From Candidatus Hadarchaeota archaeon (GTDB lineage: Archaea > Hadarchaeota > Hadarchaeia > Hadarchaeales > Hadarchaeaceae), in NCBI GenBank assembly GCA_964564905.1, contig CAZMCI010000001.1, positions 7,986 to 71,985 of the forward strand: DNA of 64,000 bases, given 5' to 3'. The notes beneath the pieces are model-generated. The model saw nothing but the letters and a program-made list of their open reading frames with translations, ran no database searches and had not been told where the DNA came from. The stretch's first letter is position 1. Each line of letters begins with the position of its first letter. This document shows positions 1,371 to 26,440 of this stretch, piece by piece. Made by a program: the position numbers and the translations under genes.

Positions 1371-3839
1371 TTAGGCGGAATATTTCATCTCGGCGATAAT
1401 TCTTTTCACCGTCTCCTTTGGATTCGCCGAGTTATAGATGGCGCTCCCGGCGATGCAGATATCAGCTCCAGCTCTGATGACATCTTTCGCCACGCCTTCT
1501 TTTATCCCGCCCGCGACGGCAAGAGGGAACTGTCCGGCTCGTCTCTTGGCCTCCGAAATAAGTTGGGTTTGTTCGTATATCCCACGTCCTTTTTGCTGTT
1601 CGCTTATACCACGGTGCAGACAGAAGACCACCCGGGACTCATGCCCCCTCAACTCCTTGACGAGCTCTCCCATCACCTCGAGAGGATCCGGGCAATCGAT
1701 AAAATCTATGAGAACGGCCCTGTTCCACTGAGCCGCCTCGCTCACCGCCTCCATTACCTTCGTCCTTCCTCCGATGGCAAGCACGGCGGAGACGTCAGCG
1801 CCCGCCCTGAACGCTATCCGAGCCTCTAGATTCCCGACATCCATCGTCTTCAGATCCGCCACGAGGATAGCTCCGGGAGCAGCTTTTCTGAGGGCCGGCA
1901 GGAGGACATCGACCCCATGTCTCTTCACCGACGGCGTCCCGGCCTCTATAATCCTAGCGCCGCCCGCGTACGCTTGCCGAGCCATCTTGGCGATGGTCTC
2001 CACATCCGCGTCCATGTCAAGCGCGACCTGAAGTTGAGGAAATTCGATCCTCTCCAACGGACTCAACATTACTTCGATCCTTCTGGCCCGTTTTGGCCTC
2101 TTGAGCGGCGGTACCTTTGCTGGTATGCCCTTTCTGCTCCATCCTCTCTCCTTATAATACTCCCTGAGAAGCGGATTCAGTTTAACACCGAACTCCCGAG
2201 GTAGCCGATCGTGGGTGGAGTCAAATCCCTCGCGTACGTTGAAGAGTCTCTCCACCGTGTATATCCTCGATCCCACCTCACGCAGGTGTTGGTTGGTCCA
2301 TTCCAGTCCAGTTACCGCGGTCAGAATCCTCGCGATGTCATCAAGCTCATATTCTAGGGTTGTGAAGAGGGCAAGTCCGTGATACTTACATCCGATCATC
2401 GAATCGTAAATGGCGAAGGCATCCTGCATTTTTCGGACCAGCGAAGCCTTTCTGGTTTCGGTGCTTGGATCGACGAACTCGGGATTGCTCAGGATCTCAG
2501 GACCGATGGTATACGCCCGCAGGTGACATCCGCCGCGATTTGAGGTCGCATATGCCAACGCTATTCCCTTCGCCCCCCGCGGATCATAAGCCGGGAGCTC
2601 CAGCCCCTTGACATGAGGAGCAAGAACTTCCAAGTTGAGTTCACGGGCGGCGGCCGCCAGTCCTTTTGAGAACTTTGACCTTCCGCTGGCTATCTCGCGA
2701 ACTAGCTTTTCTGCATCGGCGAGATTTCCGACCTCACCCGCCGCCCTAGCAAAACCCAATATGGCACCAATGGAGATCGCATCAAGTCCCAGTTCATCGC
2801 ATAACCGGTTTAGAGGGACTATCTCCCGTTCATAACTATAAAATCCGGAGTTCGGGCCCAACATGACCAAATTTTCGTATTCCGGACCTTTCCCTTCCCA
2901 TCCATTGACCCTGACCCAACGGCCACACGCGGTGGGACATGCAAAACATGCCGTACGTTTGACGAGATATCGCTCCCGTATGGTCTCTCCGGAGAACTGA
3001 TCCACATCTTCAAATGTCAGGCGGCGCCCAGAAAAATTCTCTGTCGGCAACATTCCGGCTGCTGTGATCCGGTGGACGAGCACAGCGGTGCCAAATCTGG
3101 CCAAGCTACCATCGACACCAGTGACTGGATGGGTTTCTACCGTTCGTCTTATCTTTTCCAAAATTTTTTTGTACACGCTTTCATGCACGATATTTACTTT
3201 CCCCTCGGCCCGCACGGCTACCGCCTTCAAGCGTTTGGAACCCATCACGGCCCCCATCCCACATCTTCCAGCCACACTTTCCCTGCCGGTACGAGCCCCC
3301 GCGCAGATGCATGCCATGCGCGCCAAGTTTTCCCCAGCGGGCCCTATCGTAGCAACCCATGCGCCATCGTATCTGTCCACCAGCTCTCGTCTCGTCTCCG
3401 ATGTGGTCTTACCCCACAAGGAACTCGCGTTCTCGATCGAGACCTTATCGTGATCGATGACCAAGTAAACAGGATCGGACGCTCGGCCCTCGAATACGAT
3501 GCCATCAAACCCAGCTCGTTTTAGATAAGCTCCAAATGAACCACCCATGAGGGAATCCGCAATCGTACCGGTAAGCGGTGATTTTGAACACACAGCCGTC
3601 CTACCGGCTCCGGGAAACATGGTTCCAGTGAGAGGACCGGTCATAAAGATAAGTTTGTTTTTCGGGCCAAGCGGATCTGTGCCAGGTTTGAGTTCATCGT
3701 AAAGAAGTTTAGCAGCGTAACCCCTGCCACCCAAGAAGTTATAGGCCGTCGTCATATCCGTTTTCTTCGTGGTGATAGAACCATTCGAGAGGTTCACCCT
3801 CAGCAACTTGCCGGTGTATCCGCCGATCATGAAATCCAC
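1371..3839 (-). CDS. Fusion protein: aldehyde:ferredoxin oxidoreductase (AOR/FOR family, tungstopterin) N-terminal ~600 aa + 3-hexulose-6-phosphate synthase (HPS, OMPDC suprafamily) C-terminal ~215 aa
   Basis: Continuous 822-aa ORF. AOR-type N-terminus MIGGYTGKLLRVNLSNGSI; Cys cluster RTACFACPTACG. HPS signatures LQVALDMD and ADLKTMDVG; the C-terminal half matches the HPS/KGPDC fold. Confidence 0.75.
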   Translation of the reverse strand: MDFMIGGYTGKLLRVNLSNGSITTKKTDMTTAYNFLGGRGYAAKLLYDELKPGTDPLGPKNKLIFMTGPLTGTMFPGAGRTAVCSKSPLTGTIADSLMGGSFGAYLKRAGFDGIVFEGRASDPVYLVIDHDKVSIENASSLWGKTTSETRRELVDRYDGAWVATIGPAGENLARMACICAGARTGRESVAGRCGMGAVMGSKRLKAVAVRAEGKVNIVHESVYKKILEKIRRTVETHPVTGVDGSLARFGTAVLVHRITAAGMLPTENFSGRRLTFEDVDQFSGETIRERYLVKRTACFACPTACGRWVRVNGWEGKGPEYENLVMLGPNSGFYSYEREIVPLNRLCDELGLDAISIGAILGFARAAGEVGNLADAEKLVREIASGRSKFSKGLAAAARELNLEVLAPHVKGLELPAYDPRGAKGIALAYATSNRGGCHLRAYTIGPEILSNPEFVDPSTETRKASLVRKMQDAFAIYDSMIGCKYHGLALFTTLEYELDDIARILTAVTGLEWTNQHLREVGSRIYTVERLFNVREGFDSTHDRLPREFGVKLNPLLREYYKERGWSRKGIPAKVPPLKRPKRARRIEVMLSPLERIEFPQLQVALDMDADVETIAKMARQAYAGGARIIEAGTPSVKRHGVDVLLPALRKAAPGAILVADLKTMDVGNLEARIAFRAGADVSAVLAIGGRTKVMEAVSEAAQWNRAVLIDFIDCPDPLEVMGELVKELRGHESRVVFCLHRGISEQQKGRGIYEQTQLISEAKRRAGQFPLAVAGGIKEGVAKDVIRAGADICIAGSAIYNSANPKETVKRIIAEMKYSA

Positions 3840-15444: not shown

Positions 15445-15735
15445 TTGATATCCATGAAAGCCAGAGCTCACGTTTTCATCACCGGACGTGTCACCGGTGT
15501 CTTCTTCAGGTACTACACCCAACAACTGGCCAGAAAACTGGGCGTGAATGGGTGGGTTAGAAATTTGCGCGATGGAAGGGTCGAGGCCGTCTTCGAGGGG
15601 GGACGTGAAGAGGTGGAGAAAATGGTGAAATTCTGTCATGATGGACCCCCTGGTGCAAGAGTGACGGATGTTGAAGTCAAATGGGAGGAATACAAGAGCG
15701 AGTTCTCGGGATTTGAGATAAGGTACTGGGGATGA
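15445..15735 (+). CDS. acyP: Acylphosphatase
   Basis: VxGxVQGVxFR-type motif ([14 protein letters not shown]), [17 protein letters not shown]; 96 aa. Confidence 0.8.
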
Positions 15736-16199
15736 ATATGAGCGTTCGTTCGCTGGCTGAGATTATGGAGGAGATGCGTAAGTATTACAAAGCCAACCCA
15801 GAACTCCGCCGGAAGTGGAGGGTCCTAGCAGGGAGCGATGAATATGGTTTTAGCGATTTATTCTTCTACGCGCCAAAGCTGGGGATATGGCAGATCAAAG
15901 GCGAGCTGAGGTCACCTAACGAACTCATAGGGGCTGGAGCTCGAGTTTCGGCGAGAAAGATCGACGAGGAAATCAGAGCATTGATGGAGCAGGGGACACC
16001 CGTGCCGTTCGGTCTCATCTCGCCCCACCCTAAGCTGAGGGACCACGCAATCATCGCGACAGGTTTGGGACGGTATCAGGAAACAACCAAGCAATTAAAA
16101 GAGCACCTCACGAGTCGGGAGCGCAAAGCGGATGCGGAACTCAAGAAAAGAATCGAGAGGTTGCGGCGCGAGCTGGGCCTTGACTTGGCCTACCTCTAA
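15732..16199 (+). CDS. Hypothetical protein (155 aa), translationally coupled to acyP
   Basis: 4-nt overlap with the acyP stop; no recognisable motif. Confidence 0.4.
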
Positions 16200-16243: not shown

Positions 16244-19105
16244 ATGTATGAAAAAACTAACGTGTTCGAGCTATTGGCGAAACCCATCCGCAAGTTGCTA
16301 GCTGAACGTGGGTTGACCGAACCAACTTTACCGCAACAGAAGTCCATCCCAAAAATTCTGGAAGGTAAAAACGTGCTGTTGATTGCGCCAAGCGGTACTG
16401 GAAAGACGGAAAGCGCGTTCTTGCCAGTGCTCCACCAACTACTGCTCTCCCAGAGCCGTGAACCCGGAATCAAAGTCCTTTACGTAACACCGCTCAGGGC
16501 CCTCAACCGTGACATGCTCGAACGTCTGGAGTGGTGGTGCCGTGCTTTAGACTTACGAATATCTGTACGCCACGGTGACACGACGGCGCGCGAGAGAAGA
16601 ACCCAAGCCCTGTTTTCCTCTGATGTGATGATCACCACCCCGGAAACGCTTCAGATATTCTTACTGGGACGGAGGTTGAGCGAACACCTCCGGGGGGTGA
16701 GATGGGTGATCATAGATGAGGTTCACGAACTCGCGGACAACAAACGGGGAGCCCAACTTGCCTTGACGCTGGAACGTCTTCGCGAACTTAAAGGAGGTGA
16801 GTTCCAGCTTATCGGGCTTTCGGCCACTATAGGATCTCCACAGGAAGTCGCCCGGTTTTTGGTGGGGACGGGACGCCCCTGCGAAATCGTCGATGTGAGC
16901 GTCGCGCGCGAACTCAGGATAGATGTGGAATACCCGGAACCAACCAAGCGCGACCTTGGACTCGCAAATGAACTCTACACGTACCCTCCCGTCGCAGCTA
17001 GGCTTCGGTTGATGCGGAAACTCATCGAAGAACACGGCTCCACGTTGATTTTCACGAACACCCGCCCGACCGCGGAAGTGCTCGCGAGCCGCTTCAAGCT
17101 CTGGGACATCCGCTTTCCCCTCAGCGTCCACCATGGCTCCCTCTCAAGCTTTTCCCGCCTCAGGGCCGAGCGTGCGCTGAAACAAGGGGAAGTCAAGGGG
17201 ATAATCTGTACCTCATCGATGGAACTCGGACTGGATATAGGACGCATCGACCTCGTCATCCAGTATAACTCCCCCAGACAGGTGACTCGATTGTTGCAGC
17301 GAGTGGGTCGCAGTGGTCACCGGATAGGTGAAGTGGCTAAAGGGGTCATCGTGGTTCAGGACCCGGATGATGCCCTTGAATCCATAGTCATCGCCGCACG
17401 GTCACGCCAGCGGAAACTCGAACCGGTATCGGTCGTCCAAAAGCCCCTGGACGTGCTCCTGCACGCCCTTGTCTCGATGCTCACGGTGAGGAGCAGGAGT
17501 GGGGTCGATGAAGCTTATGAGGTGTTCAGGCGCGCATATCCATTCAAGGACCTCACAAAGGAGGACCTGATTAACGTGCTCAATTTCGCGCAGAGCTTGG
17601 AAAAACAGCTCCTGTGGGTGTCCAAGGACGGAAAGGAATTTGCGCGCCCGAGGTCCAAGGAACGCGTCTTCGAGTACTATTTCGGCAACCTCTCCATGAT
17701 TCCCGAGTTCCGTCAGTACCTCGTAGTGGACGATGAAAAAAACCAACCAGTCGGGATTCTCGACGAGTCCTTCGTGGCGGAGTACGGTGAACCGGGTGTG
17801 AAATTTGTGATCGGTGGCGAGATATGGAGAATTCTGCAGGTCTTCAGAGACAGGGTATATGTGAGATCCGATAGGGACCCGCTTGGAGCGATTCCAACTT
17901 GGATAGGAGAGGAAATCCCGGTACCTTACTCAGTGGCTCAAGAGGTGGGAAAGCTTAGGGGGTGGCTCGACGAACTCCTGCGGAAAAACAAAAAATTTGA
18001 GGAAGCAGCCGCCGAGCTCGCAAAACACTACGATGTATCGACCAAAACGATGGCACTCGCCCTCGCCGACGCCCACAAGCAGATCAACGCGGGTTTACCG
18101 CTACCCACAGACCGGAGGATTACCGTAGAGCGTGTAAAAGAGATATGCGTGGTCAACGCTTGCTTCGGGACTCTCGTTAATCGAACCCTCGCGCGCCTGC
18201 TAGCTTACAAGGCCTCGTTGGAGCTGGGTGAAACGGTATCAACCTCGGTGGACCCTTATCGGATCTTGCTCCGCTCGGAAACACTGAAACCAAAGCAAGT
18301 TATCGAAATCCTCAAGGGAAGGCTCAGCGCAGATCTCAAGCGCGACTTGCGTGAGATCATCGAGCAGAGTCGCTTCTTCCGCTGGAGGCTGTCACAGGTA
18401 GCTAGGCGAATGGGCGTCCTCGAGCGCGAAGCCGAAATCACGAGTGCCGTCCTGGATAAGCTCATGCATGCGTTGAGAGGCACTTCGGCGTTCGAGGAAA
18501 CGTTCAAAGAAGTCGTGCGTAAGGACCTCCACTTAGAGCGATCACTTGAGGTGCTGGAACGCATCAAAAAAGGAGAAATTGAGGTGGTATCGTTGGGAGA
18601 ACTGCCGGAACCGACCCCGGTGTCCAGCTCGGCTTGGCGACAACGCTACCTCGCTCTTGAACCCGTGATGCCCGAGCGTCTCAGATTGCTAGCAATAGCC
18701 TCTACCAAAGCGCGCCTCCTCAGTGAAGCCAGAACCTTCGCCTGCACCCAATGCAAACGCTATGTGGGGGAGCTCCAAATTTACGAGCTCGATGAACGCC
18801 CCAAGTGTCCTCGCTGTGGGTCGACTAAATTGGGGATGACGGAAAAATCTGAGGAAGAGGTACAACGAGCGATCGAGCTGTCCGAGAAGGGCAGAACTGT
18901 AGCACTCTGGCGGACACTGCAAGAAAGCGCAAAACTCATCTCTCGATACGGGAAAACAGCTGCTCTCGCGTTGGTCGGGCGAGGGATAACACCGGCAGCT
19001 GCGGGAGACATTTTATCTAGGGAACCAAAGTTTTCGAACAAATTCATAGAACTCCTGCTCAGAAAAGAACGGGATGCTCTCCTCAAGCGGTTCAGGTGGG
19101 CGTGA
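16244..19105 (+). CDS. Lhr-type (Ski2-like superfamily 2) DEVH-box helicase with C-terminal zinc ribbon
   Basis: Walker A APSGTGKT, DEVH box (IIDEVHEL), helicase C motifs, CTQCKRY...CPRCGS near the C-terminus; 953 aa. Confidence 0.7.
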   Translation: MYEKTNVFELLAKPIRKLLAERGLTEPTLPQQKSIPKILEGKNVLLIAPSGTGKTESAFLPVLHQLLLSQSREPGIKVLYVTPLRALNRDMLERLEWWCRALDLRISVRHGDTTARERRTQALFSSDVMITTPETLQIFLLGRRLSEHLRGVRWVIIDEVHELADNKRGAQLALTLERLRELKGGEFQLIGLSATIGSPQEVARFLVGTGRPCEIVDVSVARELRIDVEYPEPTKRDLGLANELYTYPPVAARLRLMRKLIEEHGSTLIFTNTRPTAEVLASRFKLWDIRFPLSVHHGSLSSFSRLRAERALKQGEVKGIICTSSMELGLDIGRIDLVIQYNSPRQVTRLLQRVGRSGHRIGEVAKGVIVVQDPDDALESIVIAARSRQRKLEPVSVVQKPLDVLLHALVSMLTVRSRSGVDEAYEVFRRAYPFKDLTKEDLINVLNFAQSLEKQLLWVSKDGKEFARPRSKERVFEYYFGNLSMIPEFRQYLVVDDEKNQPVGILDESFVAEYGEPGVKFVIGGEIWRILQVFRDRVYVRSDRDPLGAIPTWIGEEIPVPYSVAQEVGKLRGWLDELLRKNKKFEEAAAELAKHYDVSTKTMALALADAHKQINAGLPLPTDRRITVERVKEICVVNACFGTLVNRTLARLLAYKASLELGETVSTSVDPYRILLRSETLKPKQVIEILKGRLSADLKRDLREIIEQSRFFRWRLSQVARRMGVLEREAEITSAVLDKLMHALRGTSAFEETFKEVVRKDLHLERSLEVLERIKKGEIEVVSLGELPEPTPVSSSAWRQRYLALEPVMPERLRLLAIASTKARLLSEARTFACTQCKRYVGELQIYELDERPKCPRCGSTKLGMTEKSEEEVQRAIELSEKGRTVALWRTLQESAKLISRYGKTAALALVGRGITPAAAGDILSREPKFSNKFIELLLRKERDALLKRFRWA

Positions 19106-19167: not shown

Positions 19168-19800
19168 TTACTCAGCTTTCTTTTCATCTCTTGTTTCAGC
19201 TTCCGGTTCAGTTTTTATCTCGCTGGATTTTTCCACCTCTTTTCCAAGTAATAACCCGAGAAGGGTACGTTGATCGATCTCCGCACGGGTGCGCCATCCG
19301 ATATAGAGCAACCCCTCATCGTCCTCGCTCAGGTACCCCCTCCTGATGAAGCGATCAATAGTTGACTCAATACGCCAGCGCGGAAATTTCTCCTCGAGCA
19401 CCCGCTCCACCTCCTTCAGCTGAGCCTTTCCCCCCTTTGCAAGGATATGGGAGAGGGCCACCGTAAGCATCGCCATGTCATCGATTCTCCACCCGAACGT
19501 TCTCGCTTCCGTGAGTCTCGGATGGCCTTTGAGAGTGACAAAGTAACGATCCGATTCCGATCCCTCTTCACCCTCACTTACATGTTTCACCATCAGACCA
19601 AGCTTCCCCAATTCAGCATCGAGTAGCTTCAAAATCTCTCGATATTCTCTGCCCAGCGCCCGCTTCAACTCCCAGGTCTTTGCCCCGGGTTGCATATGAT
19701 GTCTGAACAAAAGCAGCTGAGCCGCGCGCGCAAGTTTTTCCCTCAGCTCCAAGATCTCACGGTCTTCACCCATGTTTTCTCCTCTCGAGCCATTCCTCAC
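19168..19800 (-). CDS. ScpB-like protein (two predicted winged-helix domains), last gene of the smc-like/scpA operon
   Basis: Position and size fit ScpB; weak direct similarity. Overlaps the scpA stop. Confidence 0.4.
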   Translation of the reverse strand: MRNGSRGENMGEDREILELREKLARAAQLLLFRHHMQPGAKTWELKRALGREYREILKLLDAELGKLGLMVKHVSEGEEGSESDRYFVTLKGHPRLTEARTFGWRIDDMAMLTVALSHILAKGGKAQLKEVERVLEEKFPRWRIESTIDRFIRRGYLSEDDEGLLYIGWRTRAEIDQRTLLGLLLGKEVEKSSEIKTEPEAETRDEKKAE

Positions 19801-20557
19801 GTGAAATGGATATCGGAATCGAAAACGTGGCGACCTGTTCCAGCTTTTCTGGCTTTGGAAGTGGTCTGAGTACTATCTCCTCTTCAAGCGGCTTGAGTTC
19901 AAGTGTGGCGTATCCGTAACTGACTAGAAAACTCACCAGCCAAGCTTTGAGCACCGTATCCTCAAAACTCTCCTCGGATATGAAATCCCAATAGGACATT
20001 TCCCCCCTGTCGCCAGCGGAGTCCTTCAGTTCCCTCCACGTTTTGTCCAACATGGCAGCAAAATCCTCGTCCGAGAGTATCCCCATTCGGGCCAGTTCTC
20101 TGCGTGCTACCTCGCCAGTCAAAATCTCCACCGTCTCCAAGTCACGCCAACGCTCATCCAGACTGGGCAGATTTGTCCAGTACTCTCTAGCCTCCCTTAT
20201 TCCGGGGGGTGAAAGACATTCCAAGTCGATGATGGGATGCCATGCACGCACCAAGATCTCCGCCAAATCTTTTATGGACAACGCGTGTAGCTTTAGCATT
20301 ATCAACAGGGGATCTAAGTAAAGCATCGACGATTTGTGTTTGATCCATTCCTCCTGCTGAAAAACGACCTCTGCCAGACCAAGCACAGCTTGGATGTCCA
20401 GATAAAGCTCACTCTGTTTTTGGAGTTTCGGTAAAAGCTCCCTAAGCCTATCAAAGAACTCACGGACTTCCACGTCAAACGGATCCAATCCCCTCTTCCT
20501 CACGGAATCGCAAAGATCGATTATCCTGAGCATCAACTCTTGCTGTTCACCCCTCAT
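19766..20557 (-). CDS. scpA: Segregation and condensation protein A (kleisin ScpA)
   Basis: N-terminal ScpA-like helix pair ending ...HKSSML (IKS-type motif); C-terminal winged helix FLVSYGYATLE; 263 aa. Confidence 0.6.
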   Translation of the reverse strand: MRGEQQELMLRIIDLCDSVRKRGLDPFDVEVREFFDRLRELLPKLQKQSELYLDIQAVLGLAEVVFQQEEWIKHKSSMLYLDPLLIMLKLHALSIKDLAEILVRAWHPIIDLECLSPPGIREAREYWTNLPSLDERWRDLETVEILTGEVARRELARMGILSDEDFAAMLDKTWRELKDSAGDRGEMSYWDFISEESFEDTVLKAWLVSFLVSYGYATLELKPLEEEIVLRPLPKPEKLEQVATFSIPISISREEWLERRKHG

Positions 20558-22477
20558 CTAAACCGCCACCTTCACTCGGGAAGCACCTGCGAGATTTTGG
20601 ACTGTTATCACGTGAGGCACACCCTCCAGGCTCACCAGCTGACCGGGAGTTATAACAATGTACTGGGTCTTCTCCCCCTTCATAAAATCTATGATCCCAG
20701 AAAATATCGCCTCCCGGTTGCGTGGATCGAGATGAGCCTCAAATTCATCAATCGCGCGGATCGGTGATTGAATCCGTTGTTGAAGCGCCAGCAGAAAACA
20801 CATGATCGCGGTGGTGCGTTCTCCTCCACTTTGAGTGTACGCATCGAGCACCTGAGGCGCCGCGCCTTTAAACCCAACGAGTAACTCCAGCCCAGCTTCA
20901 TCTATGTCCTGGAGATTGACCGCTCGAACGTCGCCAACTGCGTGAACCTTTTCCAACACTTCAGCATACTTTTTCTTGAGTTCCCGGAACAACTCATTTA
21001 TCTCGTCGACCCATCGCTGTTTTCTCAGCTCCAACTCCTCAAGTGCCCGACGTCGATTTGCCGCGGCAACTTCGGCCTTTGCCTCCAGTTCTTTCAACGT
21101 GCTTCTGTAGTTCAGATACATCCGTTCAACATCGGGGGATACGTCGGCAAGATTTGCAAGCTTCATGTTCGTGAACTTCAGCTCGTCCAAGACCTCCTGA
21201 GGCTTTCGCTTGGTCTCTACCCTGGGACCTATTCTCTTGGCCTCATTCTCGAGTTGTTCGAGCTCTCGTCTGACCCTGCGCAGCTCTGACCGAGCTGCAG
21301 AAACGTCCCTTTCGAGGAGTTCTCGTCTGAGACCAAGAACCGCTCCTCTGACTCGGGAGCTGACATAGCTCTCATGAACTTGCTCATTTTCCTCCTTTAT
21401 CCTGACGAGCTTGGACCTCGTCTCCTTAGCGTGCGTGCCGGCCTCGACGGAACTCCTCCGAGCCCGCTCGAGCTCTGCTGAGAAACTTTTCACCATTTCC
21501 TCTGGTTCTGCTCCGACCGATCGCAGAGAGCTGCGGATCCACTCCATCAGCTTGACCCTTGCCTCCGATTCGGCCTGTATTCGTTCTTGTTCGATCAATC
21601 TTTGATACGCGCTGTCCAGCTCAAATTCCAGTTCCCTGAGCTTCTTTTCCAACTCCCGTTGCTTTTTGGAGTTTTCACTCAACTCTCCGATGACCTCTTC
21701 TAACTCACCGTTTAATTCATCTAGTTTTGAGTGGAGGGTTCCAGCCACTTCTTCCTGTCTGATGCATTTGGCCCAAGCGTATTCGAGCTCCAGCTTGTTC
21801 TTCATCTCTACGAGTTCCTGCTTTTTCCGAAAACGATGGTATTCTCCCTCCCAATAACGCAGAGTCTCACGGGCTTTTTCAAGCAGGTTTCGGGTGGACT
21901 CCTCCTCACTAAGTGTATGGGAAAGTTTTTCCCTAGCCTCCAAGATCCGTTCGCGGTACTCCCGAAGGCCCACGGCCTCTTCCACAAGCGTCAACCGTTC
22001 GGTGGGATCTATCGCTCCAAATAGGTCAACCATATTCTGATGCATTATGATGAGCATGTTATCCGGGTTGATCGAAAGCCGGCGAAGGAGCCTCAGGACC
22101 TCCCCCTTGGTAACGGTCCTGCCATTTATCTCGTGCCAGTATGTACCATCTCGACTTAGGTAGCGAGAAAGCACGATCGTGTCTGAATTTATGCTGGGGA
22201 TGGGGCGCTTATCGTTGTTGGTGGAGTTGTCGAAGACTATACTAACACGTCCGAGATCCTTTCCCCTACGGATGAGGTCACTGAGCTTTCTGGAGCGTTC
22301 AGTATAGGTCTGTCCCAAGGCCACGGCCAAACCAAGCAATATGGAGGACTTGCCCGCACCATTGGGTCCGCAGATCAAATTGAGTCCGGGACTAAGGGGA
22401 ACCCTGGAATACTCGTGGGACATGAAATTTTCGAGGATGATCTCCCGGACCAAGGCCCTCGTAGGCATGGATACCAA
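20558..22477 (-). CDS. Short SMC-like ATPase (639 aa): Walker A/B head split by a ~330-aa coiled coil, no hinge domain
   Basis: GPNGAGKSS Walker A; signature motif QSGGERT; Walker B/D-loop AIDEFEAHLD; heptad-rich middle. Directly upstream of scpA-scpB on the same strand. Confidence 0.7.
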   Translation of the reverse strand: MVSMPTRALVREIILENFMSHEYSRVPLSPGLNLICGPNGAGKSSILLGLAVALGQTYTERSRKLSDLIRRGKDLGRVSIVFDNSTNNDKRPIPSINSDTIVLSRYLSRDGTYWHEINGRTVTKGEVLRLLRRLSINPDNMLIIMHQNMVDLFGAIDPTERLTLVEEAVGLREYRERILEAREKLSHTLSEEESTRNLLEKARETLRYWEGEYHRFRKKQELVEMKNKLELEYAWAKCIRQEEVAGTLHSKLDELNGELEEVIGELSENSKKQRELEKKLRELEFELDSAYQRLIEQERIQAESEARVKLMEWIRSSLRSVGAEPEEMVKSFSAELERARRSSVEAGTHAKETRSKLVRIKEENEQVHESYVSSRVRGAVLGLRRELLERDVSAARSELRRVRRELEQLENEAKRIGPRVETKRKPQEVLDELKFTNMKLANLADVSPDVERMYLNYRSTLKELEAKAEVAAANRRRALEELELRKQRWVDEINELFRELKKKYAEVLEKVHAVGDVRAVNLQDIDEAGLELLVGFKGAAPQVLDAYTQSGGERTTAIMCFLLALQQRIQSPIRAIDEFEAHLDPRNREAIFSGIIDFMKGEKTQYIVITPGQLVSLEGVPHVITVQNLAGASRVKVAV

Positions 22478-22653
22478 CTTAATTTATGTATTCAAGTGTG
22501 AACTACCCCCAGCTTTCGCAGGGGGCTTCCTGCTTCAGCAGCGGGGCCTGTTTTTGATGGGTAAAGACGGAACCTGTACGAGAGCATTAACTCATCCCTC
22601 ATGTATTTAGCCGGGGGTTCTTTATATAGGAAAACTCGGCTTCTCCGCTCCCT

Positions 22654-22690
22654 CCCTTTCAAAAGGGAACTTCTCGGCGGTAAAGTTAAA
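22654..22690 (+). promoter_or_regulatory. Palindrome CCCTTTCAAAAGGG followed by CGGCGGTAAAGTTAAA (BRE/TATA candidate) upstream of the hypothetical gene at 22725
   Basis: Motif shared with the sepF, psmB and minD upstream regions. Confidence 0.35.
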
Positions 22691-22724
22691 GGAAGTCCAG
22701 TATTTAAATGTGGGGGGTAACTCG

Positions 22725-23429
22725 ATGGTGCTGGTAGCCAAGGTATTCGAATTTAAAGAACCCATAGAACTGTCCATCGCGGCCAAGAAGCTCAAAGATT
22801 TTTCGGAGGAGGAACCATACGAATCCGGAGATAAAAGCACAAAGCTCACCACGGAGATACTCGACCTAAAAATGGAAGGAGAGGTGCTCAGAGGGGTTTT
22901 CAGCAGGGATTTCGTGCTCAGCCGATATTACAAGAGGGGCCTCGTGGAGACCGTGGTCACGGAGGAGGTGCCCTTCCTCATCAAACGGTCTGGTGGGAGA
23001 ACTTTCTTGGTGGTACTCGCACCGTCAAAGGCCCGTGGTGTGAAGAAACTGCTAACCAACTACGTGGCAAACAAGCTCAGCGAGATCCTGTTCATAAAAA
23101 CCGGTGCGATCGTCGAGGTGAAGATCACACACGAGACACTAAAGAACCTACACGAGTCCAACCCTCGGGCGACCAAGCTGATCTGGTTTGATGATGTAGA
23201 CATCCCGGATATAGGAAAGCTCGCCCTCGCGGGATCTGGGCTCGCAGATACCAAGCTTTATCACGAGTATCTAAAACACGGGAAGATATGGTACTGTGTG
23301 TTCGAGGTGCAGAAACGTGGGTTCACGGTAGGAATAACCAGGAATTGTGTGGTAACACTGTTCACGCAAATCGACCCCGAGGAGTTCATCAATTACATTA
23401 TGAATGACGTGCTGCCGCTAATTTCTTAG
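22725..23429 (+). CDS. Hypothetical protein (234 aa from ATG 22725; the ORF track starts at GTG 22710)
   Basis: No recognisable domain. Divergent from the SMC-like operon and carries the shared promoter motif. Confidence 0.5.
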   Translation: MVLVAKVFEFKEPIELSIAAKKLKDFSEEEPYESGDKSTKLTTEILDLKMEGEVLRGVFSRDFVLSRYYKRGLVETVVTEEVPFLIKRSGGRTFLVVLAPSKARGVKKLLTNYVANKLSEILFIKTGAIVEVKITHETLKNLHESNPRATKLIWFDDVDIPDIGKLALAGSGLADTKLYHEYLKHGKIWYCVFEVQKRGFTVGITRNCVVTLFTQIDPEEFINYIMNDVLPLIS

Positions 23430-23608: not shown

Positions 23609-23974
23609 ATGAAAATTGAGGACCATATTCAGAAGCTGAAAGCTATGGAGAAGACATTTGATAAACTGGACGGGCAATCAGACTATGAAGCTATAGTCGA
23701 GCTCTGCATGCTGATTTCTGCACATTATACAAACGCCGCGTTGCACAGACTTAATGTAACACCGACCGACAGAGACATCAAACATAACAAGCTGGCTGGT
23801 GAAATAACCCGGCGGCGCGTGGAGGAGCTTTTCAGCGTCGCAGAAGCAACCAGTGCGCTTGAACAGCTCAGGCCAAGGCACATTTACGGCAAGGGCACCG
23901 ACGGAGAAGTTGCTAGGAGAGCTTTGGAGAACCTGAGGAGGGTTCGAGATACATGTATGCAGGTACTCGACTAA
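23609..23974 (+). CDS. Small helical protein, possible HEPN-like partner of the downstream nucleotidyltransferase
   Basis: 121 aa, overlaps the MNT gene by 22 nt, RDIKH motif; gene order typical of HEPN/MNT modules. Confidence 0.3.
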   Translation: MKIEDHIQKLKAMEKTFDKLDGQSDYEAIVELCMLISAHYTNAALHRLNVTPTDRDIKHNKLAGEITRRRVEELFSVAEATSALEQLRPRHIYGKGTDGEVARRALENLRRVRDTCMQVLD

Positions 23975-24546
23975 GGGACCTGTTTGACTTCGGGGAAAGC
24001 GTCGGGAAACTTCCCAACGTGCTGGCCGTAACGCTGTTCGGAAGCGCCGCTAGGGGTGAGGCGACAATCGAGAGCGACATCGATGTCGCTGTGATCTATG
24101 CGAGGAAAAACGATGCTGTCATGAAGCAGGTTGAGAGGCTGGCTCCGCCACGCGTCCACGTGGTGCATGTCACCACCAAAGAGCTCGCAAAAAATATCTC
24201 GTTGGGAGGCGCGCTGAGCGGAGAGGCGCTCCTCCTGTTCGGAAAACCCGTGATGATACAGGCGCAAAAACTCAAGCTCAGGCCCATGATGATAATCGCC
24301 TACGATACCACCGGGCTCGACCAAAACACTAGGAACAAACTGAACCACGCGCTATACGGCAGGGCGTACAGAGGAAGCGGGCGCGGGGGGAAACTTTACA
24401 GGTACGAGGGAATCGCGACGCGCCCAGGCATTTTAAAACTCGGTAAAGCTGTGTTGTTAATCCCTCGAGAGAATACATCGATTATCACGAAAACTCTTGA
24501 AGCCCACGGTGCGAAATGGCAGGAAATTCCGGTCTGGACGTACTGA
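23953..24546 (+). CDS. Pol-beta-superfamily nucleotidyltransferase (MNT-like)
   Basis: LFGSAARGEATIESDIDVAVIY (GS...SD[IV]D motif). Confidence 0.7.
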   Translation: MYAGTRLRDLFDFGESVGKLPNVLAVTLFGSAARGEATIESDIDVAVIYARKNDAVMKQVERLAPPRVHVVHVTTKELAKNISLGGALSGEALLLFGKPVMIQAQKLKLRPMMIIAYDTTGLDQNTRNKLNHALYGRAYRGSGRGGKLYRYEGIATRPGILKLGKAVLLIPRENTSIITKTLEAHGAKWQEIPVWTY

Positions 24547-24619
24547 TCTGGAAAAATTGATGCGGCCGTATTTGGTCATAGACATAAATATGCTGTCTCA
24601 TCATTCACCCGTTTGAAAC

Positions 24620-24647
24620 TTGGTGCGGCCAGCGGGCATTCGAACCC
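24620..24647 (-). other. Second tRNA 3'-end-like fragment (TTGGTGCGGCCAGCGGGCATTCGAACCC)
   Basis: The minus strand reads GGGTTCGAATGCCCGCTGGCCGCACCAA; incomplete tRNA features. Confidence 0.35.
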
Positions 24648-24676
24648 TAGAAAAGGTTAGTCCAAAGATCGAGAAG

Positions 24677-24713
24677 TGTAGTACGTAACATTTAAAAACT
24701 TGTAGTACGTAAC
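24677..24713 (+). promoter_or_regulatory. Two direct copies of TGTAGTACGTAAC flanking a TTTAAAAA TATA-like box, 10-45 nt upstream of the putative antitoxin gene; probable operator/promoter
   Basis: Exact 13-nt repeat at 24677-24689 and 24701-24713. Confidence 0.4.
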
Positions 24714-24721
24714 TGATATCG

Positions 24722-24982
24722 GTGAATCTCGTGGTGCACGTCAGACTCAGGACAATTAAAGGCAACAAATATTTTTACCTTTACACATCCGAGCGCATCG
24801 GTGGCCAGCCCAGATCTAAGTACATCGCCTACTTGGGTCGTGCGGGTTCGAACGTGGGCCGCAGGTTGCCGAGAAAATACAGATCCCGTGAGCTTGTGGA
24901 ACGGGTCAGAGCACTCGAGTTCGATGCGAGGTTAGACGAGATACTCAAAAAAAGACATGATGTGATGGTGAGACTCGGGTGA
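24722..24982 (+). CDS. Small basic protein, putative antitoxin of the downstream Fic/Doc protein
   Basis: 86 aa, 4-nt overlap with the Doc-family gene. Confidence 0.35.
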   Translation: MNLVVHVRLRTIKGNKYFYLYTSERIGGQPRSKYIAYLGRAGSNVGRRLPRKYRSRELVERVRALEFDARLDEILKKRHDVMVRLG

Positions 24983-25443
24983 CAACAGATCCGGATTGTC
25001 TAAGAACGGAAGAAATACTCAAAATCAACCAGGAACTCGCCAGACGGGACTTTCCATACACGGGGTCTGATGAATATCCAGTCAGAAAGGAAAAAATAGA
25101 ACATTTGGTTAGAGCCGTCCCGTCCCGGAGCCCGATCGATGTCGCAGCATATTACCTTAAGAACTTGCCACTGCTTCAGCCTTTTCCCGACGGCAACCAC
25201 CGGACCGCGCTAATCGCAGTAGAGATATTTTTGGAACGAAAAGGATATCGCTTTGACTACACCGAGGAAGAGGCGAATCAGCTAAGGAACCAGATGCTGA
25301 GCCTGCAGTTCAAGCTCTACGGCACTTACGAGGAGTTGCCGGAAGCGGTGACTGAAGAGCCTGACAATGAACTTTTCCGTCTGTGCCGCGATTTCATAAA
25401 AAAACACGCAATACGCGGCCGTCCCAAAACCCAGTCGAAGTAG
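24979..25443 (+). CDS. Fic/Doc-family protein (death-on-curing-like toxin)
   Basis: Fic/Doc motif PFPDGNHRTALIA (HxFx[DN]GNxR-like). Confidence 0.65.
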   Translation: MTTDPDCLRTEEILKINQELARRDFPYTGSDEYPVRKEKIEHLVRAVPSRSPIDVAAYYLKNLPLLQPFPDGNHRTALIAVEIFLERKGYRFDYTEEEANQLRNQMLSLQFKLYGTYEELPEAVTEEPDNELFRLCRDFIKKHAIRGRPKTQSK

Positions 25444-25454
25444 GTTGTCTTGAA

Positions 25455-25472
25455 TTTGGTGCGGCCGGCGGG
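25455..25472 (-). other. Third, degenerate tRNA-acceptor-like fragment (TTTGGTGCGGCCGGCGGG) inside a TTGAATT/AATTCAA inverted repeat
   Basis: Shares TTGGTGCGGCC.GCGGG with the fragment at 24620. Confidence 0.25.
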
Positions 25473-25606
25473 TAGTGGATTTCAATTCAAACTTATCAGA
25501 CCAAATTCCCCTTACGCGAATGATTTTAGTGGACTCTTGTAACGGGTCTCCGAATCTAACGCAAATATAATAACTGGGGGGGACATAAGTATTGAATTGG
25601 TTGAGA

Positions 25607-26440
25607 TAGATGCTGTTAACTTAGCACCTCCATCCACGTTCTGAAACCTCCTTCGCCGCCGCTCGGTGGCCAGCCTAACGACATGTGTTGCCTGCATTTG
25701 TTGTACCAAAAACAGAAAACCACGGCAAAGTTTTGAATCGTCTTCAATCGCTGGGTCGGGAAGTAGCAGTCAAACGCGCGCAACCTATCCTTGAACGTCT
25801 CGAACCAGCGCTCGATGTGGTTGCGCTCTCCGCCGCACATCACGATGTGCTTCAGTCCAAGCCGCCGCGTCGGCCATCGGTACCAGGGACCACCATCGGT
25901 GATGATAACTGGCTTCCCCTTGCAGTAGCGAAGGCAGCGCTTGAGGAATCTCAGCGTATCGATGCTCTCCCGGTACTTTGTCGCCAGCAGATATACGATC
26001 TCGCGATTTTCGGGGTCTACGGCCCCAAAAACGTAAATCCAGCCGCTTTTCGTGCGGATCTTGGTCTCGTCGACGACGAGGCAGCGCCTCCGCCTCCGTC
26101 TGAACACACGTTCCTTCAGGACCTGTCCGAGTTTCTGGACCCACTTCCAGATCGCCACATGCGATACTCGTGCGCCCAAATCACGTAGGAGTTCCTTGAG
26201 CCTGCGGAGGCTGGATCCTTGCGCGTAGAGATACGAGGTGAAGACTTTCACCTCCAGTGCCACGCGCTTGCGCACGAAAATGCTTTTTGTCTGTTGACCC
26301 AACAGACTACTTGGGGCCAGGTGGGTAAGGAACTCTTTGAGTTCCGACGACATTGGAAATCACCTCCTATGTGTCCCCCACCGCCCCAAATCCAGCAAAG
26401 AATATCTCTAGGAGGAAAATCTTAAGTTAACAGCATCCAT
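25607..26440 (-). mobile_element. IS6-family insertion sequence (~830 bp) with 15-bp terminal inverted repeats GATGCTGTTAACTTA
   Basis: The left end at 25609-25623 and the reverse complement of the right end at 26421-26438 share GATGCTGTTAACTTA. Single DDE transposase ORF inside. No clear target-site duplication. Confidence 0.7.
25616..26353 (-). CDS. IS6-family DDE transposase
   Basis: VVDETKIRTKSGWIYVFGAVD...ITDGGPWY...HIERWFETFKDRL matches the IS6 D-D-E arrangement; 245 aa. Confidence 0.75.
   Translation of the reverse strand: MSSELKEFLTHLAPSSLLGQQTKSIFVRKRVALEVKVFTSYLYAQGSSLRRLKELLRDLGARVSHVAIWKWVQKLGQVLKERVFRRRRRRCLVVDETKIRTKSGWIYVFGAVDPENREIVYLLATKYRESIDTLRFLKRCLRYCKGKPVIITDGGPWYRWPTRRLGLKHIVMCGGERNHIERWFETFKDRLRAFDCYFPTQRLKTIQNFAVVFCFWYNKCRQHMSLGWPPSGGEGGFRTWMEVLS

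What the first reader, a model, noticed from the sequence alone, without database searches (positions are those of the whole stretch)
19168..22477. Hinge-less short SMC-like ATPase (639 aa) in a classical operon with ScpA and a ScpB-like gene
Canonical SMC proteins are ~1150-1200 aa with a central hinge. This ORF has complete head motifs (Walker A GPNGAGKSS, signature QSGGER, Walker B/D-loop DEFEAHLD) but only ~330 aa of coiled coil and no hinge. The downstream genes on the same strand look like kleisin ScpA and a two-winged-helix ScpB-like protein, which is the smc-scpA-scpB order. Short SMC-like proteins (Sph, ClsN/coalescin, arcadin-4 types) are known in archaea. As far as I know, pairing a short SMC-like protein with ScpAB would be an unusual minimal condensin.
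Basis: partly seen in the sequence, partly recalled or inferred. Interest (0 to 1): 0.6.

Follow-up and report, generated by a model that had tools for sequence, protein, structure and literature searches.

The report
Hinge-less archaeal SMC5/6-type complex operon
This Hadarchaeal operon encodes an SMC5/6-type chromosome-maintenance complex (ATPase, Nse4-like kleisin, Nse1/3-like partner) whose ATPase naturally lacks the hinge and outer arms thought essential for SMC machines.

Summary
Three translationally coupled minus-strand genes encode a 636/639-aa SMC-family ATPase with intact ATPase motifs, a 263-aa kleisin and a 201/210-aa tandem winged-helix (kite) protein. The ATPase is not a fragment. 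More than 120 homologue clusters keep about 637 aa, and the AlphaFold2 model (pLDDT 88) is a bare hairpin: a 150-residue helix, a 4-residue turn and a return helix with a joint. There is no hinge and no zinc hook.

The interpretation needs correcting. The partners are not ScpA/ScpB. The kleisin family matches only Nse4. The kite matches Nse1/Nse3/MAGE, weakly but consistently. The ATPase sits in a 100%-bootstrap clade with eukaryotic SMC5/6 that excludes canonical SMCs. Archaeal "SMC5/6-related" operons are already published, with Hadarchaeota in a supplementary table.

The hinge loss does appear to be undescribed. About 59 short clusters (50% identity) across Hadarchaeota and Thermoproteota form one clade whose sister lineages are long and hinge-bearing. 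A Bathyarchaeial subclade has re-elongated the arm with a central CxxC.

I judge it a new variant of a known kind. Its likely mode of action, an ATP-gated kleisin/kite DNA clamp in genome maintenance, is inferred. A convergent Lhr helicase (29/42 loci) and a divergent 234-aa gene of unknown fold (36/42 loci) are recurrent neighbours.

The parts
20558..22477 (-). SMC5/6-related, hinge-less SMC ATPase gene. It is 639 aa from the TTG at 22477; the more likely start is the ATG at 22468, giving 636 aa (identical to P0001).
21965..22468 (-). N-terminal half of the ATPase head (aa 4-171). It holds Walker A GPNGAGKSS (22343-22369) and the Q-loop MHQ (22037-22045).
   Evidence: invariant columns.
21515..21964 (-). 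Ascending coiled-coil helix (aa 172-321). It is one continuous 150-residue helix, about 22 nm long.
   Evidence: AlphaFold2 model.
21503..21514 (-). Four-residue turn at the arm tip (aa 322-325), at the position where other SMCs carry the hinge. The surrounding tip (about aa 311-350) is the least conserved part of the protein.
   Evidence: The central gap relative to hinge-bearing relatives is shown.
21230..21502 (-). Descending coiled-coil helix, distal part (aa 326-416).
21131..21229 (-). Joint-like discontinuity in the descending helix (aa 417-449). It begins with the conserved GPRxETxRxP motif.
   Evidence: The best Foldseek match is the Pyrococcus Smc head+coiled-coil+joint construct 5xei.
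20948..21130 (-). Head-proximal descending helix, the neck (aa 450-510). It is well conserved and is the expected binding site for the kleisin N-terminus (inferred).
20561..20947 (-). C-terminal half of the ATPase head (aa 511-639). It holds the signature TQSGGER (20816-20833), Walker B/D-loop DEFEAHLD (20726-20749) and the Smc5-like QY..ITPGQL motif (20636-20653).
19766..20557 (-). Nse4-like kleisin gene (263 aa). The C-terminal winged-helix region (aa 189-237, nt 19847-19993) matches Pfam Nse4_C.
19168..19800 (-). Nse1/Nse3(MAGE)-like kite gene. It is 210 aa from the GTG; the more likely start is the ATG at 19773, giving 201 aa (identical to P0241). It has two winged-helix domains at about aa 2-81 and 97-175 in P0241 numbering.
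22478..22724 (.). Intergenic region between the operon and the divergent 234-aa gene. I presume it holds a divergent promoter; this is inferred and not tested.
22725..23429 (+). Conserved, divergently transcribed 234-aa gene of unknown fold. It is a candidate accessory component; that link rests on association only.
   Evidence: It is 53-73% identical in Hadarchaeal and MSBL1 loci and present in 36 of 42 loci. It has no Pfam, NCBIfam, PADLOC or PDB match.
16244..19105 (+). Lhr-type DNA helicase (953 aa), convergent with the operon and ending 63 nt from the kite stop codon. It is a recurrent neighbour; any functional link is inferred.
   Evidence: DEAD, Helicase_C, WH_Lhr, DEAD_assoc. A convergent Lhr is present in 29 of 42 loci, including the MSBL1 locus and the Thermofilales locus.

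Best explanation
The locus encodes an archaeal SMC5/6-type complex of three proteins: an SMC ATPase, an Nse4-like kleisin and an Nse1/Nse3-like kite. It is a naturally miniaturised form, because the ATPase has lost the hinge and the outer roughly two thirds of each arm.

Shown by the evidence:
- The three genes form a tightly coupled operon that is conserved across two archaeal phyla.
- The ATPase has all catalytic motifs, a head, neck and joint, and a coiled-coil hairpin of about 22 nm ending in a 4-residue turn.
- The ATPase belongs to the SMC5/6 clade.
- The short form is a large, probably monophyletic radiation derived from hinge-bearing ancestors.

Inferred, not shown:
- Two ATPase subunits dimerise through ATP-sandwiched heads. 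They are bridged asymmetrically by one kleisin, with its N-terminal helices on the neck of one subunit and its C-terminal winged helix on the cap of the other. The kleisin carries a kite dimer.
- DNA is clamped on top of the engaged heads inside the kleisin/kite compartment, as in DNA-bound Smc5/6 and Smc-ScpAB.
- With no hinge, there is no closed SMC lumen unless the arm tips or arms self-associate. The complex would then act as an ATP-gated DNA clamp or bridge, or a short-range translocase, in genome maintenance. It would not be a classical long-arm loop extruder.
- Any such role would fall in replication-fork or recombination-intermediate handling. The frequent convergent Lhr helicase fits this.
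For: Identity of the ATPase:
- A phmmer search of 1.84 billion cluster representatives finds, after the archaeal family itself, eukaryotic SMC5 and SMC6 as the next best hits.
- The family profile scores Smc6 and Smc5 chains at 240-270 bits. Full-length Smc2, Smc3, Smc4 and Smc1 score 120-210 bits.
- The motifs TQSGGER, D(P/S)RN and QY..ITP are shared with yeast Smc5.
- In an outgroup-rooted NJ tree of the heads, the window protein falls in a 100%-bootstrap clade with eukaryotic SMC5/6 that excludes canonical bacterial and archaeal SMCs.

Identity of the partners:
- Kleisin: Nse4_C is hit in 42 of 62 homologues (best E 4e-7). PDB hits are only EID3 (9e-6) and yeast Nse4 (8e-4).

Hinge loss:
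- No SMC_hinge hit.
- A single clean gap of about 400 residues relative to long relatives.
- The AlphaFold2 hairpin at pLDDT 88.
- A poorly conserved tip.
- No CxxC in any of 172 short forms.

Conservation of the operon:
- SMC-like gene adjacent to the kleisin in 46 of 46 loci, and kite downstream in 47 of 47.
- The same operon is present in the Thermofilales and 'Thaumarchaeota' UBA160 loci.

Evolutionary polarity:
- The short clade is monophyletic at 72% bootstrap, with hinge-bearing P0417 and P0440 as sister lineages.

Literature:
- SMC5/6-related SMC-kleisin-kite operons are described in archaea, and Hadarchaeota are listed in the supplementary table.

Repair context:
- A convergent Lhr helicase is present in 29 of 42 loci.
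Against: - The trees are NJ with simple distances, and deep nodes are poorly supported. The 72% support for a single origin of the short form is suggestive only.
- No complex was modelled or measured. Stoichiometry, kleisin bridging, DNA clamping and the absence of tip dimerisation are all inferred by analogy.
- The tip might still dimerise through non-conserved coiled-coil contacts.
- The Lhr gene is convergent, not co-transcribed, and is missing from 13 of 42 loci. Loci were not de-replicated by lineage, so these counts overweight Hadarchaeia.
- Whether this genome also has a canonical Smc-ScpAB could not be checked.
Confidence: 0.6

Rival explanations
1. This is a minimal condensin: a shortened Smc working with ScpA and ScpB as the cell's main chromosome-organising and segregation complex.
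For: The gene order SMC-kleisin-kite is the same as smc-scpA-scpB. In the published table, three of four Hadarchaeales genomes have no canonical SMC called, so this complex could be the only SMC complex in many Hadarchaea and might have taken over chromosome organisation. It behaves as a conserved, vertically inherited core gene set.
Against: None of 62 kleisins hits ScpA and none of 45 kites hits ScpB. The SMC scores 166 bits against a cutoff of 729 for the TIGR02169 equivalog. It falls in the SMC5/6 clade with 100% bootstrap, away from canonical SMCs. ScpB-like kites are called in all four Hadarchaeales genomes of the table, and one Hadarchaeon (WYZ-LMO6) has a separate canonical operon. Engineered arm shortening of B. 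subtilis Smc often abolishes chromosome loading (PMC5344682).
Confidence: 0.15
2. This is an SMC-based immunity system against plasmids or viruses, working like Wadjet or Lamassu, or like eukaryotic Smc5/6 when it restricts extrachromosomal DNA.
For: PADLOC gives whole-length but weak matches of the ATPase to mad3 (100 bits) and LmuB (77 bits). LmuB is also about 650 aa with coiled coils of about 20 nm (PMC10586767). In this window a nucleotidyltransferase, a Fic-domain gene and an IS transposase lie just beyond the divergent neighbour. Eukaryotic Smc5/6 restricts extrachromosomal DNA.
Against: The kleisin, the kite and the 234-aa neighbour have no PADLOC hit. No nuclease or other effector gene is conserved next to the operon. 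Walker B keeps its DE, whereas LmuB typically carries an E-to-Q change, and there is no zinc hook. The operon is uniformly present, syntenic and about as conserved as housekeeping genes across Hadarchaeia and MSBL1. That is unlike the sporadic distribution expected of defence systems. The mobile or defence-like genes seen in this window are absent from the other loci.
Confidence: 0.1
3. This is a member of the archaea-specific SMC-related proteins (ASRP: ClsN/coalescin, Sph1/2) or of arcadin-4. These are short SMC-like proteins that act without a kleisin.
For: The size is similar (about 600-650 aa) and the hosts are archaeal. NCBIfam gives a weak ASRP hit at 4e-15.
Against: The ASRP score is 55 bits against a cutoff of 300, and the arcadin-4 score is 28 against 860. 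ASRPs nearly all carry a zinc hook and show no consistent flanking genes (PMC9389158). This family has no CxxC and is always followed by a kleisin and a kite. In that paper's trees, ASRPs are separate from the SMC5/6-related SMCs, and this protein groups with the latter.
Confidence: 0.03
4. This is an assembly or frameshift artefact: a broken full-length smc gene.
For: None beyond the short length.
Against: The length is conserved in more than 120 clusters and in 46 of 46 loci from independent samples. The ORF is uninterrupted, with both head halves aligning end to end. The AlphaFold2 model is confident and complete.
Confidence: 0.01

Closest known systems
Archaeal 'SMC5/6-related' SMC-kleisin-kite operons (Yoshinaga & Inagaki 2021, PMC8665677; van Hooff et al., bioRxiv 10.1101/2024.01.07.573240)
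   Same: The ATPase falls in the same clade, together with eukaryotic SMC5/6. The partners are an Nse4-like kleisin and an Nse1/3-like kite. The three-gene operon order is the same. Hadarchaeota genomes appear in the preprint's supplementary table, and one Hadarchaeon is given as a gene-cluster example.
   Different: The published descriptions treat these as ordinary SMC complexes. Their alignments removed the coiled coils, and in the texts and supplements I could search, 'hinge' occurs only in general descriptions of SMC architecture, with nothing on its loss. Here the ATPase is about 640 aa with no hinge, and that state characterises a large clade. The preprint's tree-based table did not call an Nse4-related kleisin in any Hadarchaeota genome, whereas the profile evidence here does.
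Eukaryotic Smc5/6 complex (Smc5, Smc6, Nse4, Nse1, Nse3)
   Same: Head sequence signatures (TQSGGER, QY..ITP). The kleisin's C-terminal winged helix matches Nse4_C. The kite has the tandem winged-helix fold closest to Nse1 and Nse3. By inference, the head/kleisin/kite DNA-clamp geometry is also shared.
   Different: There is one SMC gene, presumably forming a homodimer, rather than an Smc5/Smc6 heterodimer. There is one kite gene and no RING domain. No Nse2, Nse5 or Nse6 is present. There is no hinge, and the arm is about 22 nm; longer Smc5/6 arms are my recollection, not measured here.
Bacterial/archaeal Smc-ScpAB
   Same: It is an SMC-kleisin-kite complex with the same gene order and the same head/neck/joint architecture. 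The best Foldseek match of the model is the Pyrococcus Smc head+joint construct.
   Different: The ScpA and ScpB models are not matched. The ATPase is on a different branch of the SMC tree. There is no hinge, and the arms are less than half the ~50 nm cited for Smc.
Hinge-less SMC homologues from marine Actinobacteria-like bacteria (PMC12153180)
   Same: They are natural SMC-family proteins that have lost the hinge, and they were flagged as unusual.
   Different: They are bacterial and lie in the canonical-SMC part of the family. No kleisin or kite context was reported. They represent an independent loss.
Lamassu LmuB and Rad50-type short coiled-coil ABC ATPases
   Same: Overall size (about 650 aa) and arm length (about 20 nm).
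   Different: LmuB is Rad50-like, often carries a zinc hook and a Walker B E-to-Q change, and works with LmuA effectors and LmuC. None of these features is present here.
Engineered B. subtilis Mini-Smc and Smc(Zh) hinge-to-zinc-hook chimeras (PMC5344682)
   Same: They show that arms can be shortened and that the hinge can be replaced by a Rad50 zinc hook while some function is kept. The natural short forms, and the Bathyarchaeial forms with a central CxxC, look like natural counterparts.
   Different: The engineered proteins always kept a dimerisation module at the tip. The natural short form has none that I can detect.

Membership tests
Archaeal SMC5/6-related complex | The SMC subunit groups with eukaryotic SMC5/SMC6, not with canonical SMC or SMC1-4. 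| tested here: met
   100% bootstrap clade in an outgroup-rooted NJ tree of the heads. Eukaryotic SMC5/6 are the next-best hits in 1.84 billion representatives. Smc6 and Smc5 are the top hits in the PDB profile search. Motifs are shared with Smc5.
Archaeal SMC5/6-related complex | Nse4-related kleisin. | tested here: met
   Nse4_C is hit in 42 of 62 homologues, best E 4e-7. The only significant PDB hits (E below 0.01) are EID3 at 9e-6 and yeast Nse4 at 8e-4. The window protein itself scores below the Pfam cutoff (18 bits against 26).
Archaeal SMC5/6-related complex | Nse1/Nse3-like (MAGE-type) kite. | tested here: inconclusive
Archaeal SMC5/6-related complex | SMC, kleisin and kite genes are adjacent in one operon. 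| tested here: met
   for the window. 46 of 46 and 47 of 47 related loci. Also Thermofilales and UBA160.
SMC proteins in general | A central hinge dimerisation domain at the end of long (about 50 nm) arms. | tested here: not met
   No SMC_hinge hit. A central gap of about 400 residues relative to hinge-bearing relatives. The AlphaFold2 hairpin has a 4-residue turn.
SMC proteins in general | Split ABC ATPase head with Walker A, Q-loop, signature motif, Walker B and D-loop. | tested here: met
Smc-ScpAB (prokaryotic condensin) | The SMC reaches the TIGR02169/TIGR02168 equivalog cutoff. | tested here: not met
   166 bits against 729, and 128 against 567.
Smc-ScpAB (prokaryotic condensin) | The kleisin matches ScpA and the kite matches ScpB. 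| tested here: not met
   No ScpA or ScpB hit for the window proteins or for any of the 62 and 45 homologues.
ASRP (ClsN/coalescin, Sph1/2) | NCBIfam NF045487 cutoff; a zinc hook at the arm tip; no fixed kleisin/kite neighbours. | tested here: not met
   55 bits against 300. No CxxC. Always followed by a kleisin and a kite. The family's features are taken from PMC9389158.
Arcadin-4 (Rkd4) | NCBIfam NF053563 cutoff. | tested here: not met
   28 bits against 860.
Lamassu (LmuB) | A Rad50-like LmuB with LmuA effector and LmuC partners; often a zinc hook and a Walker B E-to-Q change. | tested here: not met
   Only a generic 77-bit LmuB match, with no PADLOC hit for the partners. Walker B keeps DE. 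No CxxC. No conserved effector gene.
Wadjet (JetABCD) | A MukBEF-like JetC, JetA and JetB plus the JetD Toprim nuclease. | tested here: not met
   The JetC match is only 33 bits, and there are no JetA, JetB or JetD hits. No nuclease gene is conserved nearby.
Archaeal SMC5/6-related complex | Physical assembly of the three proteins into one complex. | not testable with these tools
   No multimer prediction or biochemistry was available. Assembly is inferred from operon coupling and homology.

The most novel reading that the evidence does not exclude
A large, ancient archaeal radiation across Hadarchaeota and several Thermoproteota lineages runs an SMC5/6-type machine with no hinge and arms of only about 22 nm. 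In most Hadarchaea it is the only SMC complex. If so, a kleisin/kite-bridged pair of SMC heads with short open arms is enough for an essential genome-maintenance function, working as an ATP-gated DNA clamp together with the Lhr helicase and a new 234-aa subunit. Nature would then have run the 'remove the hinge' experiment once and the 'replace it with a zinc hook' experiment once, within a single clade.
Probability: 0.3. Interest if true: 0.75.

Novelty: new variant of a known kind. Interest (0 to 1): 0.55.

Why it matters
SMC complexes are usually explained through a hinge-closed ring or rod with long, length-tuned arms. DNA entrapment, segment capture and loop extrusion models all use that geometry.

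A widespread, conserved, natural SMC-kleisin-kite complex that has no hinge would define the minimal working core of an SMC machine: heads, neck, joint, kleisin and kite. It would also provide a small, probably thermostable complex of about 640, 263 and 201 residues for structural and single-molecule work.

Because it belongs to the branch that gave rise to eukaryotic Smc5/6, it bears on what the ancestral Smc5/6 activity was, in particular DNA clamping at damaged or stalled forks versus loop extrusion.

The same clade contains hinge-bearing, hinge-less and CxxC-tipped forms. That offers a natural comparative series for asking what the arm tip actually contributes.

Tried and rejected
- **Genome scan swamped.** It returned mostly canonical bacterial SMCs and only two true relatives (L005, L006). 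Some of those canonical SMCs later served as the outgroup.
- **Canonical smc-scpAB in this genome not testable.** No tool gives access to the whole MAG, and the window (64 kb of a 78.6-kb contig) holds no second SMC, kleisin or kite. I relied on the published table instead.
- **Kite by sequence.** The kite family profile against PDB sequences gave nothing.
- **The 234-aa neighbour.** Its profile gave nothing against PDB or Pfam.
- **Foldseek with the SMC model.** All SMC-family heads match, so it did not discriminate between families.
- **Rfam.** No RNA family was found in the window.
- **Zinc hook.** Considered as an alternative tip dimeriser and rejected for the short forms, with 0 of 172 carrying a central CxxC.
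- **Other identities.** ASRP, arcadin-4, Lamassu and Wadjet were considered and rejected on curated cutoffs and gene context.
- **Literature on hinge-less archaeal SMCs.** The search found only a bacterial case.
- **Promoter.** I did not try to define the promoter; a TATA-like ATAAATTA lies close to the start codon, but its spacing was not analysed.

Full report
**1. What is in the sequence**

Three ORFs lie head to tail on the minus strand:

| ORF | Maximal length | Likely real start and length |
|---|---|---|
| 20558..22477 | 639 aa (TTG) | ATG at 22468, 636 aa (P0001) |
| 19766..20557 | 263 aa | as called |
| 19168..19800 | 210 aa (GTG) | ATG at 19773, 201 aa (P0241) |

Identical proteins in public assemblies are called from the internal ATGs. 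The SMC stop codon is followed directly by the kleisin ATG, and the kleisin and kite genes overlap by 8 nt. This is a translationally coupled operon. Homologue names identify the organism as a member of the Hadarchaeia (Hadesarchaea).

**2. The ATPase is complete, and it has no hinge**

- Pfam matches SMC_N across residues 10-611, which is the split head, and finds no SMC_hinge.
- The 120 closest clusters at 90% identity range from 554 to 652 aa with a median of 637. In 46 of 46 kleisin-anchored loci from independent samples, the adjacent gene spans 614-635 aligned residues. A frameshift or assembly artefact is therefore excluded.
- An AlphaFold2 model built on 54 family members is confident (pLDDT 88.1). 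It shows the N-terminal head half, one continuous helix 172-321, a 4-residue low-confidence turn at 322-325, a return helix 326-416, a break at 417-449 that starts with the conserved GPRxETxRxP motif, helix 450-510, and the C-terminal head half.
- The best Foldseek match is the engineered Pyrococcus 'Smc head with coiled coil and joint'. This fits the break being the SMC joint.
- The arm is about 150 residues long, or roughly 22 nm.
- The tip (about aa 311-350) is the least conserved part of the protein in 118 Hadarchaeal sequences. No CxxC occurs there in any of 172 short forms.

I see no candidate dimerisation module at the tip.

**3. Which family the ATPase belongs to**

NCBIfam places it far below the cutoffs for prokaryotic SMC (166 bits against 729), ASRP (55 against 300) and arcadin-4 (28 against 860). 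Four lines of evidence place it on the SMC5/6 branch:

1. A phmmer search of 1.84 billion cluster representatives finds the archaeal family first. The next hits, at E 1e-38 to 1e-27, are proteins of 1000-1135 aa. The five of seven I looked up that carried a name are eukaryotic SMC5 or SMC6 from insects, a green alga and a fungus.
2. The family profile scores human SMC6 at 270 bits and yeast Smc5 and Smc6 at about 250 bits. Full-length Smc2 scores 210, Smc3 182 and Rad50 64.
3. The alignment to yeast Smc5 shows shared C-terminal head signatures: TQSGGER, D(P/S)RN and QY..ITP.
4. I used canonical bacterial and archaeal SMC genes recovered from genome loci as an outgroup. In the resulting NJ tree of the heads (341 columns, 200 bootstraps), eukaryotic SMC5/6, the long archaeal relatives and all short forms including the window protein form a clade with 100% support. 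That clade excludes every canonical SMC.

**4. The partners are Nse4-like and Nse1/3-like, not ScpA/ScpB**

- **Window proteins.** The 263-aa protein gives only a weak Nse4_C hit, and the 210-aa protein only a weak MAGE hit. Neither gives an ScpA or ScpB hit.
- **Kleisin family.** Nse4_C is hit in 42 of 62 homologues (best E 4e-7) and ScpA in none. The kleisin profile against all PDB sequences gives significant hits only to EID3 (a human NSE4 paralogue, by my recollection; 9e-6) and to yeast Nse4 (8e-4); the few other matches have E above 0.7. The alignment covers the C-terminal winged helix.

The kleisin assignment is reasonably firm. The kite assignment is consistent but weak.

**5. What was already known**

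Yoshinaga & Inagaki (PMC8665677) defined 'SMC5/6-related' archaeal SMCs. Van Hooff et al. (bioRxiv 10.1101/2024.01.07.573240) showed that many archaea encode a second operon with an SMC5/6-related SMC, an Nse4-related kleisin and an Nse1/3-like kite.

Their Supplementary Table 3 includes Hadarchaeota. For the four Hadarchaeales genomes it records:

| Protein class | Genomes with a call |
|---|---|
| SMC5/6-related SMC | 2 of 4 |
| Nse1/3-related kite | 4 of 4 |
| ScpB-like kite | 4 of 4 |
| Nse4-related kleisin | 0 of 4 |
| Canonical SMC | 1 of 4 (WYZ-LMO6) |

WYZ-LMO6 is also listed as an example of a genome with both operons.

Neither paper mentions a missing hinge or short arms; in the main texts and supplements I could search, 'hinge' appears only in general descriptions of SMC architecture, and their SMC alignments had the coiled coil removed. 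The only 'hinge-less SMC' I found in the literature is a bacterial, Actinobacteria-affiliated marine clade with no kleisin or kite context (PMC12153180). The operon type is therefore known. The architecture appears not to have been described.

**6. How the short form arose**

An alignment of short and long relatives shows heads, neck and joint aligning throughout, with one central gap of about 400 residues in the short forms. Long relatives include:

- P0451 (an Asgard Freyarchaeum protein, 835 aa), which has a Pfam SMC_hinge hit.
- P0417 (982 aa), which has a classical hinge-like segment.

In both NJ trees the short forms make up one large clade of about 59 clusters at 50% identity. Its monophyly has 72% support in the rooted tree, and P0417 and P0440 are successive sister lineages. 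The simplest reading is a single loss of the hinge and distal arm.

Named members of the short clade come from Hadarchaeia, MSBL1, Nitrososphaeria, Bathyarchaeia, Thermofilales, a Korarchaeota/Thermoproteota MAG and Candidatus Culexmicrobium.

Three Bathyarchaeial clusters of 1016-1047 aa are nested inside the short clade with 86-100% support. They have no SMC_hinge hit and carry a single C-x-x-C-G at almost exactly mid-length. This looks like a secondary re-elongation capped by a zinc-hook-like motif. It parallels the engineered, functional Smc(Zh) chimera of Bürmann et al. (PMC5344682).

A second, separate short lineage (P0442 and P0450, about 630 aa) also exists.

These trees use simple distances and deep support is modest. 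The polarity is my best reading, not a proof.

**7. Gene neighbourhood**

Counts come from 59 kleisin-anchored metagenome loci plus a few others, and they were not de-replicated:

| Feature | Count |
|---|---|
| SMC-like gene directly upstream of the kleisin | 46 of 46 |
| Kite gene downstream (once after a 5.4-kb insertion) | 47 of 47 |
| Divergent 234-aa gene upstream | 36 of 42 |
| Convergent Lhr-type helicase downstream | 29 of 42 (23 within 1.4 kb) |

- The same three-gene operon occurs in a Thermofilales MAG and in 'Thaumarchaeota' UBA160.
- The Lhr neighbour recurs in the MSBL1 locus and the Thermofilales locus.
- The 234-aa protein is 53-73% identical across Hadarchaeia and MSBL1. It has no match in Pfam, NCBIfam, PADLOC or PDB sequences.
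- The mobile or defence-like genes next to it in this window (nucleotidyltransferase, Fic, IS transposase) are not conserved in other loci.

**8. How it most likely works**

Shown:
- All ATPase motifs are intact, including Walker B DE.
- The neck and joint regions are well conserved.
- The operon with a kleisin and a kite is invariant.

Inferred by analogy with Smc-ScpAB and with DNA-bound Smc5/6 structures:
- Two ATPase subunits engage their heads around two ATP molecules.
- One kleisin bridges the neck of one subunit and the cap of the other, and carries a kite dimer.
- DNA is clamped on the head surface within the kleisin/kite compartment.

Without a hinge, the two arms are not joined distally. 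A closed SMC lumen would exist only if the arms zip together or the tips associate, and nothing in the sequence suggests this. I therefore favour an ATP-gated DNA clamp or bridge acting in genome maintenance, over a long-arm loop extruder. The SMC5/6 ancestry and the Lhr association point toward replication-fork or recombination-intermediate handling. This functional step is the weakest part of the argument.

**9. Rivals**

- **Minimal condensin.** A role as the sole chromosome organiser cannot be excluded. Most Hadarchaeales MAGs in the published table lack a called canonical SMC. As a family assignment, however, Smc-ScpAB fails.
- **Defence system.** The ATPase gets only generic PADLOC matches, the partners get none, no effector gene is conserved, and the operon has a uniform, syntenic, core-like distribution.
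- **ASRP or arcadin-4, and artefact.** Both are rejected.

**10. Verdict**

What is new is that a large archaeal clade runs this complex without a hinge, with a nested lineage that regained a long arm tipped by CxxC. I rate it a new variant of a known kind, with moderate to fairly high interest for SMC specialists.

Noticed in passing
Related proteins P0374 (1047 aa), P0385 (1028 aa) and P0388 (1016 aa); Bathyarchaeia, e.g. RLI38935.1 and MCW4041730.1: These long members are nested inside the short, hinge-less clade. They have no SMC_hinge hit but carry a single C-x-x-C-G at almost exactly mid-length (positions 542, 531 and 522). This is a candidate zinc hook on an SMC5/6-type protein and a natural counterpart of the engineered Smc(Zh) chimera. 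None of 172 short forms has it.
   Followed up: partly
window 22725-23429 (+): A 234-aa protein of unknown fold is transcribed divergently from the operon. It is present in 36 of 42 related loci and is 53-73% identical across Hadarchaeia and MSBL1. It has no Pfam, NCBIfam, PADLOC or PDB match. It may be an accessory subunit or regulator.
   Followed up: partly
window 16244-19105 (+), with 15445-15735 (+) and 15732-16199 (+): An Lhr-type helicase (953 aa) lies convergent with the operon and ends 63 nt from the kite stop codon. A convergent Lhr recurs in 29 of 42 related loci, including the MSBL1 locus and a Thermofilales MAG from a different phylum. The acylphosphatase gene beside it is also conserved in the MSBL1 locus.
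   Followed up: partly
window 23609-26353: A cluster typical of mobile or toxin-antitoxin regions. It holds a 121-aa ORF plus a nucleotidyltransferase (PF01909; PADLOC PDC-S09), an 86-aa ORF plus a Fic-domain protein (PADLOC PDC-S04), and a DDE transposase on the minus strand (25616-26353). It is absent from the equivalent position in Hadarchaeum yellowstonense, so it is probably a local insertion unrelated to the SMC operon.
   Followed up: partly
window 1371-3839 (-): A single 822-aa ORF combines aldehyde/formaldehyde ferredoxin oxidoreductase domains (AFOR_N and AFOR_C, aa 10-575) with an OMP-decarboxylase/HUMPS-family domain (aa 601-814). If the latter is a hexulose-phosphate synthase, the fusion would link formaldehyde release to its oxidation. 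That reading is speculative.
   Followed up: no
L095:9828-15277: In one related locus a 5.4-kb insertion separates the kleisin from the kite gene. It contains an ORF of about 750 aa with a very weak (32-bit) match to the SMC-family HMM.
   Followed up: no
L099:12399-16820 and L134:10342-13683: The Lhr ORFs in these loci span 1458 and 1105 residues, against about 950 elsewhere, while still covering the whole Lhr profile. This suggests an inserted element, such as an intein.
   Followed up: no
L086:5453-6112 (MSBL1 archaeon SCGC-AAA259A05, LHXJ01000025.1): The kite gene of this operon is not called in the public annotation, but it is clearly present as an intact ORF.
   Followed up: yes
Related proteins P0442 and P0450 (633 and 628 aa): A second, separate lineage of short SMC5/6-clade proteins groups away from the main short clade. 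This suggests an independent shortening. Its organism and gene context were not examined.
   Followed up: no
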